A DNA stretch of 4,448 nucleotides, from IMG/VR virus record IMGVR_UViG_2713896899_000010. One strand, given 5' to 3'. The position numbers and the translations under genes are program-made. Within the stretch, counting starts at the first letter, position 1. The number at the start of each line of letters is the position of its first letter. This document shows, in pieces, positions 2,521 through 4,401 of this stretch. Source of the DNA: a virus (taxonomy: Duplodnaviria; Heunggongvirae; Uroviricota; Caudoviricetes). Below the pieces are notes generated by a model, which was not told the origin of the DNA, searched no databases, and saw only the letters and a program-made list of their open reading frames with translations.

Positions 2521-4401
2521 ATGACGCCAAGTGAACTTAGCGACCTGCTTTGGGCGCAGGTTGACAGGGTGGCTCCGCACCTGTTGCCAAACGGCAAGAA
2601 AGAGGGGCATGAGTGGGTTGCCGGTAACGTTAACGGTGACAAGGGAAACAGCCTTAAGGTCAACCTTAGCGGCAAGAAAAAATGGGCTGATTTCGCTGAG
2701 GGAGACGGCGGTGACATGCTTGATTTGTGGATGGCATGTCGAGGAATTAACCTGCATCAGGCTATGCAGGAAGCGAAAGCATTTCTCGGTATCAAGGATG
2801 ACGATCACCATTTCGATGCCAAACGTGAGAAGAAATTCTCCAGACCTGATCGCAAGAAAATCGCCCGCTACGTTACCAGAATAGAATCCCATCTTGAGTA
2901 CCTGCAATCGCGTGGCATATCGCCAGAAGTCGTAAAGCGCTACGAGGTTGTCAGCGGCAAGGTGTGGAATGGAGAACGAGAACTTGATGCACTGGTGCTT
3001 CCGTACAAACGCGATGGTGAGTTGTTGCAGGTCAAGCGAATCAGCACTGAGCGCCCGGACGGGAAGAAAGTCATTATGGCAGAAGGTGATTGCGAACCTT
3101 GTCTGTTCGGATGGCAGGCTCTGGACGCTGGCGTAAGGGCGGTTGTACTTTGCGAAGGCGAAATTGATTGTATGAGCTATGCGCAATACGGCATCTCGGC
3201 GTTATCCGTGCCGTTTGGTGGCGGGAAAGGCGCTAAGCAGCAGTGGATTGAGTTTGAGTATCACAACCTCGACAGGTTTGAGGAAATATTCATCTCGATG
3301 GACGTTGATGATGTTGGTCGTGAAGCCGCAAGGGAAATCGCAAGCCGACTCGGTGAACATCGTTGCCGTCTTGTTACTCTGCCGTACAAAGACATCAACG
3401 AATGCCTGATGAACGGTGTTACCGAGGATGAAATCTGGCAGTACATCGGCACGGCATCCTTCTTCGACCCTGAAGAACTCTACAGCGCGCGAGAGTTTTA
3501 CCAGGACACTATCAACGCTTTCTACGGCAAGCAGCAGTATCTGTTTAATCCACCGTGGGAATCTCTGGCAGATAAATTCCAGTTCCGTGAGGCCGAGTTG
3601 ACGCTGGTCAATGGTGTGAACGGTCACGGAAAAACGGAGGTTGTCGGGCATATGGCACTTGAGGCAATGCGTCAGGGTGTGAAGACGTGCATCGCGTCAC
3701 TTGAGCTGAAGCCTGGTATTCTCCTTAAGCGACTTACCCGTCAGGCAACGTGCTGCAAGATGCCGCCAGTGCTGGAAATTGACTCTGCATTTAAATTTTA
3801 TGACGAAAGACTTTGGGTGTTTGGCCTGACCGGAACGGCGAAAGCCGACAGGCTGATCGAAATATTCGACTACGCTCGCCGCCGATACGGCATCCAGTTA
3901 TTCATCATCGACAGCCTGATGAAATGCGGCATAGGTGACGATGACTATAACGGGCAGAAAGCATTTGTTGACTCGATTTGCGACTTCAAAAACAAAACAA
4001 ACTCCCACGTCATTCTCGTTACTCACTCGCGAAAAGGAGACAGCGAAGAAAAACCAACCGGAAAAATGGACGTAAAAGGCTCTGGAGCGATAACAGACCT
4101 GACAGACAACCTTTTCATCATCTGGCGTAACAAGGCTCGCGAGAGAGCGTTACAGAGAGTTCAGAGTGGTGAAAAGATGTCAGAGAAGGACGAACAGCTA
4201 CTGGCATCTCCGGCATCTGTTTTGATGCTTGAAAAACAACGTAACGGCGAAGGTTGGGAAGGTGGTGTCCCGTTGTTCCTTGACGAGCAATCGCACCAGT
4301 TCCTGCAACTTGAATCAGGATCGCCATATAGCTACATCGCCAATATGCCGAAATCGGAATATGACGAGGCGTGGCGACAGGAAAACGTGACGGAGTATTA
4401 A
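2521..4401 (+). CDS. Bifunctional primase-helicase, 626 aa: Toprim primase core plus DnaB/T7 gp4-like (SF4) helicase domain
   Basis: RBS GAGGGA at 2512-2517. Toprim Glu (VLCEGEID, about aa 212) and DxD (MDVDDVG, about aa 261). Walker A GVNGHGKTE (about aa 365), Walker B LFIIDSLMK, helicase motif HVILVTHSRKG, and DnaB-type motif LEKQRNGEG (about aa 572). Confidence 0.85.
   Translation: MTPSELSDLLWAQVDRVAPHLLPNGKKEGHEWVAGNVNGDKGNSLKVNLSGKKKWADFAEGDGGDMLDLWMACRGINLHQAMQEAKAFLGIKDDDHHFDAKREKKFSRPDRKKIARYVTRIESHLEYLQSRGISPEVVKRYEVVSGKVWNGERELDALVLPYKRDGELLQVKRISTERPDGKKVIMAEGDCEPCLFGWQALDAGVRAVVLCEGEIDCMSYAQYGISALSVPFGGGKGAKQQWIEFEYHNLDRFEEIFISMDVDDVGREAAREIASRLGEHRCRLVTLPYKDINECLMNGVTEDEIWQYIGTASFFDPEELYSAREFYQDTINAFYGKQQYLFNPPWESLADKFQFREAELTLVNGVNGHGKTEVVGHMALEAMRQGVKTCIASLELKPGILLKRLTRQATCCKMPPVLEIDSAFKFYDERLWVFGLTGTAKADRLIEIFDYARRRYGIQLFIIDSLMKCGIGDDDYNGQKAFVDSICDFKNKTNSHVILVTHSRKGDSEEKPTGKMDVKGSGAITDLTDNLFIIWRNKARERALQRVQSGEKMSEKDEQLLASPASVLMLEKQRNGEGWEGGVPLFLDEQSHQFLQLESGSPYSYIANMPKSEYDEAWRQENVTEY

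What the first reader, a model, noticed from the sequence alone, without database searches (positions are those of the whole stretch)
2608..2730. Primase N-terminus looks like a zinc ribbon that has lost all four metal ligands
Residues about 30-70 (VAGNVNGDKGNSLKVNLSGKKKWADFAEGDGGDMLDLWM) can be aligned with the DnaG-type zinc-binding motif (CPFH...SFTVN...YHCFGCGAHGNAIDFLM, from memory). Glycines and hydrophobics are conserved, but the Cys/His ligands are replaced by Gly/Asn/Asp/Glu. The Toprim catalytic residues and helicase motifs downstream look intact. A primase-helicase with an inactive template-recognition domain would be expected to have altered or lost priming specificity, or to rely on a partner.
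Basis: inference. Interest (0 to 1): 0.5.

Follow-up and report, generated by a model that had tools for sequence, protein, structure and literature searches.

The report
Zinc-free zinc-finger domain in phage primase-helicase
The phage replication enzyme in this window starts with a domain that has the shape of the bacterial primase zinc finger but none of its four zinc-holding residues; this is an old, strongly conserved trait of a large family, so the domain most likely still works without zinc.

Summary
ORF 2521..4401 (+) encodes a 626-aa primase-helicase of the T7 gp4/Twinkle type in a lambdoid replication module. Near-identical copies occur in Sf101, mEp043, ES18, epsilon34 and Stx2 phages, and in 296 of 5,426 complete E. 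coli genomes.

The interpretation needs correcting. This is not a recent decay. All 141 N-termini analysed from the best-scoring cluster representatives (37-60% identity) lack the ligands. Gly35 and Asp57 are fixed at 95-97%. The ex-zinc core is the best-conserved segment of the protein (50% mean pairwise identity, against 48% for Toprim and 34% for the helicase). The primase catalytic residues and helicase motifs are intact.

Most likely this is a zinc-independent but working primase template-handling domain. That function is inferred, not shown. The loss of ligands resembles metazoan Twinkle, but here the catalytic site is kept. I found no paper describing this. I rate it a new variant of a known kind, of moderate interest.

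The parts
2521..4401 (+). Primase-helicase ORF (626 aa plus stop), T7 gp4/Twinkle type
2521..2790 (+). N-terminal domain, residues 1-90. It has the DnaG-type zinc-binding-domain fold: two helices, a five-stranded sheet, then two helices. It has no metal ligands.
2608..2730 (+). The reported stretch (residues 30-70): the former zinc-ribbon core with both 'knuckles'
2623..2625 (+). Gly35, the equivalent of DnaG Cys40 (ligand 1). Gly in 95% of the family.
2632..2634 (+). Asn38, the equivalent of DnaG His43 (ligand 2). This position varies freely in the family.
2689..2691 (+). Asp57, the equivalent of DnaG Cys61 (ligand 3). Asp in 97-100% of the family.
2698..2700 (+). Glu60, the equivalent of DnaG Cys64 (ligand 4). 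Variable in the family (T/S/G/D/E/N/A).
2791..2835 (+). Predicted flexible linker (residues 91-105) between the N-domain and the RNA-polymerase domain
   Evidence: pLDDT falls to 55-64 only in this stretch, in both models.
2836..3435 (+). RNA-polymerase (primase catalytic) domain, residues 106-305. It includes K172 (3034-3036), K182 (3064-3066), the Toprim residue E212 (3154-3156), D261/D263 (3301-3309) and D291 (3391-3393).
   Evidence: All are invariant or nearly invariant in alignments of 107 and 98 sequences. They were mapped to T7 gp4 K122, K128, E157, D207, D209 and D237.
3571..4320 (+). SF4 (DnaB/gp4-type) helicase domain, residues 351-600. Walker A GVNGHGKT lies at 3613-3636.
1637..2413 (+). 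Upstream O-like initiator (HTH_36) gene of the same replication module. It carries three 21-bp direct repeats at 1926-1991.
   Evidence: Pfam HTH_36, E 5e-14. Repeats. Annotated 'replication protein O' in related phages.

Best explanation
Residues 1-90 of the primase-helicase are a true evolutionary descendant of the DnaG-type CHC2 zinc-binding domain. The domain folds without zinc.

The four ligands were replaced long ago, in the ancestor of a large clade of primase-helicases carried by phages and other mobile elements. Two replacements, Gly35 and Asp57, then became fixed. The other two positions drift.

Inferred mechanism:
- The Asp57 carboxylate, together with the glycine-rich first knuckle (G35-x3-G39-E/D40-x-G42-x-S44), supplies hydrogen bonds that take over the cross-bracing role of zinc.
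- The non-ligand signature residues of the canonical domain are retained. These are Glu/Asp40, Ser44, Val47, Lys53, the aromatic residue at 55, Phe58 and Gly64-Asp65.
- The domain is tethered by a flexible linker to a catalytically intact Toprim RNA-polymerase domain, as in T7 gp4.
- It most likely still does the normal job of this domain: engaging the single-stranded template and holding the nascent primer. The phage therefore primes its own lagging strand without host DnaG.

Shown: homology, fold, absence of the ligands, family-wide conservation, and intact catalytic motifs.

Inferred: zinc independence of the fold in vitro, the role of Asp57, and primase activity.
For: Homology and fold:
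- hhalign 95.4%, E 1.9e-8, with a negative reversed control.
- The BFVD viral structure hits that carry names are mostly CHC2 zinc-finger proteins and primases.

Ligands absent across the family:
- The ligand columns are 47/47 C/H/C/C in canonical domains. In the 141 family N-termini analysed from the 150 best cluster representatives they are G 95%, variable, D 97%, variable.
- The same holds in 239 homologues and in the distant phage primases of AcaML1, WO, VarioGold and Mica.
- The family is large: 414 clusters (50% identity) at E<=1e-30 and 6,100 at E<=1e-3.

Constraint on the domain:
- The core, residues 24-71, has 50% mean pairwise identity. Toprim has 48%, the helicase 34% and the linkers 25-32%.
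- G42 and S44 are invariant. G35, G39, W55, D57, G64, D65 and L69 are at least 90% conserved.
- AF2 folds the domain with pLDDT above 90 and no metal, with a low-confidence tether at 91-105.

Primase machinery intact:
- E212, D261, D263 and D291 are invariant; K172 is invariant among the 98 sequences and K182 is nearly invariant. They map to the T7 gp4 metal-binding residues and essential lysines.
- Some relatives carry inteins inserted exactly in the Toprim EGE|xD motif, a sign that this site is essential.

Context:
- The module holds only an initiator plus this protein.
- The helicase is gp4-type and lacks the DnaB N-terminal domain that docks host DnaG. That docking role is established knowledge, so the need for a self-supplied primase is an inference.
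Against: - No biochemistry exists for this family in the literature I could search.
- In T7 gp4 and DnaG, loss of the zinc ligands abolishes template-directed priming (established knowledge). A zinc-free domain that recognises templates would therefore have no precedent among characterised DnaG-type primases.
- The only well-studied ligand-less homologue, metazoan Twinkle, is primase-dead (PMC4417153, PMC9860392, PMC3610141).
- AF2 cannot judge metal dependence.
- I could not inspect model coordinates, so the proposed role of Asp57 is untested.
- Strong conservation would equally fit a repurposed domain, for example one used for protein docking or DNA loading.
Confidence: 0.6

Rival explanations
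1. The domain has been repurposed. It kept the fold but now serves mainly in protein-protein or loading functions: docking to the element-specific initiator (the O-like protein), ring opening and loading at the origin, or generic ssDNA binding that supports the helicase, as in human Twinkle. Sequence-specific template recognition has been lost or moved to the RNA-polymerase domain.
For: - In human Twinkle the ligand-less N-terminal region is still needed for ssDNA binding and helicase activity (PMC4417153) and for processive DNA synthesis by polymerase gamma (PMC9860392).
- T7 primase-domain residues help load the hexamer (PMC9198812, abstract seen).
- The gene is translationally coupled to a variable upstream initiator-like gene in phages and in integrative elements.
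- High conservation fits any essential function.
Against: - The upstream partner differs widely (HTH_36 proteins, or unrelated 274-aa and 307-aa proteins), while the N-domain signature is nearly constant. That argues against a partner-specific docking surface.
- The retained residues are the same non-ligand signature residues as in working DnaG zinc-binding domains.
- The catalytic primase residues are fully conserved.
Confidence: 0.2
2. The scenario of the first reader, or of metazoan Twinkle: the primase function is degenerate or inactive, the protein acts only as a helicase, and priming is left to host enzymes (DnaG or RNA polymerase).
For: All four zinc ligands are gone. Ligand mutants of T7 gp4 lose template-directed priming (established knowledge). 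Metazoan Twinkle shows that such a path exists (PMC3610141, PMC4417153).
Against: - Metazoan Twinkle also lost its Toprim metal-binding residues. Here E212, D261, D263 and D291 are invariant among the 107 sequences, which share 29-60% identity with the query; K172 is invariant among the 98 sequences.
- The N-domain core is the best-conserved part of the protein.
- Inteins target the Toprim motif.
- A gp4-type helicase has no docking domain for DnaG (inference from established knowledge).
Confidence: 0.12
3. The domain still binds a metal through a non-canonical set of ligands: either zinc via Asp/Glu/Asn/His, or a hard metal such as Mg2+ or Ca2+ via oxygen donors (S/N/D36, E/D40, D57, T/S/D/E60).
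For: Asp57 is nearly invariant. Position 40 is Glu or Asp, position 36 is Ser, Asn or Asp, and position 60 often carries an oxygen donor.
Against: - Gly35 cannot bind a metal.
- Positions 38 and 60 also accept Gly, Ala or Val.
- Only one acidic side chain is strictly conserved, which is too few for a defined site.
- Extra cysteines at positions 33, 48 and 56 are sporadic. Only 2 of 141 sequences have three of them.
Confidence: 0.06
4. The resemblance is spurious: an unrelated small beta-rich fold that merely resembles a zinc ribbon in sequence pattern.
For: The Pfam hit is below threshold (13 bits against a 24.9-bit cut-off). A family profile searched against PDB sequences found no primase.
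Confidence: 0.02

Closest known systems
DnaG-type CHC2 zinc-binding domain (Pfam PF01807; structures 1D0Q of B. stearothermophilus and 2AU3 of A. aeolicus)
   Same: - Same position at the N-terminus of a Toprim primase, on a flexible linker.
- Shared non-ligand signature residues: E45/E40, S49/S44, V52/V47, K56/K53, F62/F58, G68/G64 and D/N69/D65 (DnaG/window numbering).
   Different: All four zinc ligands (C-x2-H ... C-x2-C) are absent. They are replaced by fixed Gly35 and Asp57 and by two variable positions. The domain scores below Pfam's threshold.
Bacteriophage T7 gp4 primase-helicase (structures 1NUI, 1Q57, 6N7I)
   Same: - One polypeptide combining a Toprim RNA-polymerase domain and an SF4 helicase. 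The alignment covers residues 101-619 (hhalign 99.9%, E 1e-36).
- The catalytic Glu and Asp residues and the essential lysines are conserved.
   Different: T7 has a short Cys4 zinc ribbon (the Prim_Zn_Ribbon type) that binds zinc and reads 5'-GTC-3'. Here the N-domain is the longer DnaG type and has no ligands. Pfam returned only PF01807 for the N-terminus and nothing of the T7 type, and the hhalign match to gp4 starts only at gp4 residue 50.
Metazoan (human) Twinkle mitochondrial helicase, N-terminal ZBD-like domain (7T8B; 8E2L lacks it)
   Same: - A gp4-type primase-helicase architecture with a DnaG-like N-terminal domain that lacks the zinc ligands.
- Some sources name family members 'twinkle protein'.
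   Different: Human Twinkle has also lost the Toprim metal-binding residues and is primase-dead (PMC4417153, PMC9860392). This family keeps every catalytic residue that was checked.
Other zinc fingers or ribbons that evolved into metal-free folds (Ros/MucR homologues, RbpA, Cys-minus ribosomal proteins, Cren7/Sul7)
   Same: The same kind of evolutionary event: the ligands are lost and the fold is kept. This rests on my own knowledge; titles are listed, including PMC5906684, PMC12948726 and PMC3675491.
   Different: These are unrelated protein families. None is a primase template-recognition domain.

Membership tests
DnaG-type CHC2 zinc-binding domain (PF01807 / CATH 3.90.580.10) | Zinc-ribbon fold with flanking helices at the N-terminus of a Toprim primase | tested here: met
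   [not shown]
DnaG-type CHC2 zinc-binding domain (PF01807 / CATH 3.90.580.10) | Significant sequence-profile match | tested here: inconclusive
   Pfam gives 13.1-13.5 bits against a 24.9-bit cut-off, E 0.07-0.08. 12 of 54 relatives hit at E<=1, best 2.9e-4. Profile-profile hhalign gives 95.4%, E 1.9e-8. The domain is homologous but falls outside the curated family threshold.
DnaG-type CHC2 zinc-binding domain (PF01807 / CATH 3.90.580.10) | Four zinc ligands, C-x2-H-x17-C-x2-C | tested here: not met
   The positions read G35, N38, D57 and E60. None of the four is a Cys or His ligand in the window or as a set in any of the 141 and 239 relatives analysed (His occurs at position 38 in a minority). 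The 47 canonical domains are 47/47 at each position.
DnaG-type CHC2 zinc-binding domain (PF01807 / CATH 3.90.580.10) | Binds one zinc ion | not testable with these tools
   Needs metal analysis of purified protein.
T7 gp4 / Twinkle-type bifunctional primase-helicase (SF4) | Toprim catalytic acidic residues (T7 E157, D207, D209, D237) | tested here: met
   E212, D261, D263 and D291 are aligned to these residues and are invariant in the family.
T7 gp4 / Twinkle-type bifunctional primase-helicase (SF4) | RNA-polymerase-domain lysines (T7 K122, K128) | tested here: met
   K172 and K182 align to them. K172 is invariant among the 98 sequences and at least 90% conserved among the 107; K182 is nearly invariant. 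That these T7 lysines are essential is from my own knowledge.
T7 gp4 / Twinkle-type bifunctional primase-helicase (SF4) | C-terminal RecA-like SF4 helicase domain with a Walker A motif | tested here: met
   [not shown]
T7 gp4 / Twinkle-type bifunctional primase-helicase (SF4) | Cys4 zinc ribbon at the N-terminus (T7 type) | tested here: not met
   Pfam returned only PF01807 for the N-terminus, nothing of the T7 type. The N-domain is DnaG-like and has no ligands.
T7 gp4 / Twinkle-type bifunctional primase-helicase (SF4) | Primase and helicase activities | not testable with these tools
   Needs enzyme assays.
Primase-dead Twinkle (metazoan type) | Loss of the zinc ligands | tested here: met
Primase-dead Twinkle (metazoan type) | Loss of the Toprim metal-binding residues | tested here: not met
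   All are retained and invariant.

The most novel reading that the evidence does not exclude
This family is a natural, widespread, zinc-independent DnaG-type primase. The metal-free N-domain would still select priming sites on single-stranded DNA and hand primers on. An invariant Asp57/Gly35 hydrogen-bond brace (or, less likely, a hard-metal site) would replace the structural zinc. If so, zinc is dispensable for template recognition in this primase class. It would also provide a bacterial and phage model for the ligand-less N-domain of animal Twinkle.
Probability: 0.45. Interest if true: 0.6.

Novelty: new variant of a known kind. Interest (0 to 1): 0.42.

Why it matters
Zinc binding is treated as a hallmark of DnaG-family primases, and the zinc domain is thought to read the priming site.

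Here a very common gene keeps every catalytic residue but has replaced the metal site, in a conserved and family-wide way. The gene is found in about 5% of complete E. coli genomes, in Stx2-converting phages, in Salmonella P22-like phages, and in Legionella and Pseudomonas mobile elements.

If the enzyme primes, three things follow:
- It separates the structural role of zinc from template recognition.
- It offers an easily purified model for the ligand-less N-domain of human Twinkle, a disease gene.
- It explains how these phages replicate independently of host DnaG and DnaB. This is relevant to the replication of Stx phages.

If the enzyme does not prime, the extreme conservation of the domain and of the Toprim site needs another explanation.

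Tried and rejected
1. A homologue search with only the 110-aa N-terminus returned nothing but truncated or frameshifted fragments of the same gene. It was uninformative and cost one capped search.

2. A family N-domain profile searched against PDB sequences with hmmsearch found no primase (best E 0.6, antibodies). The profile penalises Cys at the ligand columns. This was resolved with profile-profile comparison and fold comparison.

3. My first hand alignment put the ligands at N36 and G39. hhalign shows a one-residue shift, so the correct equivalents are G35 and N38. The counts for positions 36 and 39 were redone.

4. An alternative cysteine site: some relatives have Cys at positions 33, 48 and 56. 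These are sporadic (only 2 of 141 have three) and absent from the window, so I rejected them as a replacement zinc site.

5. A zinc-ribbon partner acting in trans: the 35-aa ORF overlapping the start (2417..2524) has no Cys. Neighbours in a Legionella island, an integrative conjugative element (ICE) and another island show no conserved small zinc-finger gene.

6. Literature searches for a description of ligand-less zinc domains in phage or bacterial gp4-like primases found only the metazoan Twinkle case and general replication-module surveys.

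Full report
**What is in the window.**
The 4,448-base window is the immunity and replication region of a lambdoid phage. It contains:
- a cI-like repressor (54..767, minus strand);
- a cro-like gene (868..1068);
- a cII-like region;
- an O-like initiator with an HTH_36 domain (1637..2413);
- a 626-aa ORF at 2521..4401.

From about position 1150 onward, the DNA is 97-98% identical to Stx2-converting phages (24B, Min27, F451, Xuzhou21). The primase-helicase gene is 95-100% identical in Sf101, mEp043, ES18 (gp61), epsilon34 (gp52), SEN22 and others. 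It occurs in 296 of 5,426 complete E. coli genomes, annotated only as 'toprim domain-containing protein'.

**What the protein is.**
- Pfam finds Toprim_2 (residues 209-296) and AAA_25/DnaB_C (355-594).
- PHROG 239 'DNA primase/helicase' matches end to end at E 7e-171.
- phmmer against PDB sequences finds T7 gp4 (E 3e-23) and Twinkle (E 7.5e-14).
- A 107-sequence family profile aligns to T7 gp4 with hhalign probability 99.9% and E 1e-36, family 101-619 to gp4 50-561.

**Checking the observation.**
The reported coordinates 2608-2730 are codons 30-70, and the quoted peptide is residues 33-71.

Single-sequence HMM evidence is weak but in register. Pfam Zn_ribbon_DnaG aligns residues 26-92 to model positions 26-92 at E 0.08, below threshold. 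TIGR01391 (dnaG) aligns 26-143 to 27-155 at E 4.4e-10 for the whole protein.

I collected relatives with an exhaustive search against cluster representatives, using residues 1-330 as the query. It found 6,100 clusters at E<=1e-3 and 414 at E<=1e-30, and listed the best 150. I also built a canonical set of 47 non-redundant CHC2 domains.

The profile-profile comparison gives 95.4% probability and E 1.9e-8 over 79 columns, family 14-94 to DnaG 19-98. With the template reversed, P is 0.076.

The viral structure library hits that carry names are mostly CHC2 zinc-finger proteins and primases. The fold assignment is therefore secure.

**The ligands.**
In the hhalign register, DnaG C40/H43/C61/C64 correspond to G35/N38/D57/E60. 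All 47 canonical domains have C, H, C and C at these columns.

In the 141 N-termini analysed from the listed representatives (37-60% identical to the query), the columns are:
- Gly 95%;
- freely variable (N/D/S/A/H/G/Q/E/R...);
- Asp 97%;
- variable (T/S/G/D/E/N/A).

The same holds in 239 further homologues. More distant phage primases with other C-terminal domains are also ligand-less. These are AcaML1 gp17, a Wolbachia WO phage, VarioGold p48, Burkholderia phage Mica gp44 and Ralstonia phages.

**Why this is not a decayed relic.**
Across 107 full-length relatives, mean pairwise identity by region is as follows:

| Region | Mean pairwise identity |
|---|---|
| Ex-zinc core (24-71) | 50% |
| Whole N-domain | 41% |
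| Toprim | 48% |
| Helicase | 34% |
| Linkers | 25-32% |

G42 and S44 are invariant. G35, G39, W55, D57, G64, D65 and L69 are at least 90% conserved.

The residues shared with canonical domains are the non-ligand signature residues: E45/E40, S49/S44, V52/V47, K56/K53, F62/F58, G68/G64 and D/N69/D65. Two ex-ligand positions became fixed with new identities and two were released. That pattern suggests a specific structural substitute for the metal. I infer that the Asp57 carboxylate bridges to the glycine-rich first knuckle.

Both models show a low-confidence tether at residues 91-105. This resembles the mobile zinc-domain linker of T7 gp4 and DnaG.

**Is the primase likely to be active?**
- The Toprim acidic residues E212, D261, D263 and D291 are invariant.
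- K172 is invariant among the 98 sequences and at least 90% conserved among the 107; K182 is nearly invariant.
- They align to T7 E157, D207, D209, D237, K122 and K128. The functional importance of the T7 residues is from my own knowledge.
- Some relatives carry inteins inserted inside the EGE|xD Toprim motif, and others in the Walker A motif. Inteins typically lodge in indispensable sites.
- The helicase is gp4-type and lacks the DnaB N-terminal domain that recruits host DnaG. A self-supplied primase is therefore expected. This is an inference.

This sets the family apart from metazoan Twinkle. Twinkle lost the zinc ligands and also the catalytic metal ligands, and it is primase-dead. Its N-terminal region nevertheless remains needed for ssDNA binding and helicase function (PMC4417153, PMC9860392, PMC3610141).

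**Context and partners.**
- The family is not restricted to lambdoid phages. Members sit next to integrases in Legionella islands and in an integrative conjugative element.
- The translationally coupled upstream gene varies. It is an HTH_36 protein in some contexts and an unrelated 274-aa or 307-aa protein in others.
- No conserved small zinc-ribbon gene accompanies the family.
- This argues against a zinc domain supplied in trans. It argues weakly against a partner-specific docking role for the N-domain.

**Comparison with what is known.**
- The thing works like, and descends from, the DnaG CHC2 zinc-binding domain. It fails the defining ligand test, so it should not be called zinc-binding.
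- The whole protein is a member of the gp4/Twinkle primase-helicase class.
- Loss of zinc ligands with retention of the fold is a known evolutionary event in other families (titles, and my own knowledge) and in animal Twinkle.
- I found no paper noting it for phage or bacterial gp4-like primases, or for any primase that keeps its catalytic site.
- Stx-phage surveys mention HTH_36 proteins and primases among the non-lambda replication units ('Eru' types) but do not discuss this domain (PMC8951638). I did not establish which Eru type this module belongs to.

**Verdict.**
The ligand loss is real, but 'inactive' is unlikely.
- The best explanation is a zinc-independent, functionally constrained template-handling domain of an active primase. 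My confidence in that functional part is about 0.55. My confidence in the homology and ligand-loss part is above 0.9.
- Novelty: a new variant of a known kind.
- Interest: moderate (0.42). The case is easily testable by metal analysis and a primer-synthesis assay.

Noticed in passing
window 1926-1991: Three tandem 21-bp direct repeats (GGGGTGGGGCAGGAGCTGACC; spacing 21 and 24 bp) lie inside the O-like initiator gene, where they encode GGAGAD three times. They are candidate origin iterons within the initiator gene, as in lambda O/ori.
   Followed up: partly
window 2417-2524: A 35-aa ORF (MKSKIKSLLVAGYNHGWLSISFVDFWFKNLNLRES) overlaps the primase-helicase start codon through an ATGA. Related phages annotate a hypothetical protein gene next to the primase-helicase here (for example ES18 gp60, epsilon34 gene 51). 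It has no cysteines and no known function.
   Followed up: partly
L093 1575-4481 (Stx2a_F451); also P0038 and P0218: In the Stx2 phage F451 the same gene is 968 aa long; the matches in 24B and Min27 are about 1 kb longer than the query, consistent with the same insertion. The extra 342 aa sit exactly after Lys371 of Walker A (GHGK|A...THN|TEVV). The insertion has LAGLIDADG-like motifs and features of a class 3 intein. The window's copy is intein-free.
   Followed up: partly
P0186, P0229, P0238 (relatives): A second insertion site holds intein-like insertions of 305-322 aa inside the Toprim catalytic motif (EGE|C...GN|CDA, after the equivalent of E214).
   Followed up: partly
L088, L090, L091: Family members also sit in integrase-bearing islands. 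These include a Legionella island, an element with conjugative-element genes (DUF2859, RAQPRD, DUF3487, DUF2895, DUF3438), and an island with DarT and Macro genes nearby. The upstream coupled gene differs in each.
   Followed up: no
window 2638-2805 (residues 40-95): NCBIfam TIGR02760 (conjugative relaxase/helicase TraI, 1,960 positions) matches residues 40-95 at model positions 1590-1646, E 6.4e-5. PRK07078 ('hypothetical protein', 759 positions) matches residues 6-97 at E 1.6e-14. The same ligand-less motif may therefore exist in other mobile-element replication or transfer proteins.
   Followed up: no
window 1-1150 versus 1150-4405: There is a mosaic junction. The Stx2 phage matches begin at about 1150, at the cII-like region. 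The cI and cro genes to the left look like lambda-immunity alleles (from memory) and match other phages.
   Followed up: no
family alignment, query positions 33, 48, 56: Many relatives have cysteines at three non-ligand positions of the sheet (for example EWCVGS...SLKVCL...VWCDF). Cys is the most frequent residue at position 33 (28%). They rarely co-occur and are absent from the window.
   Followed up: partly
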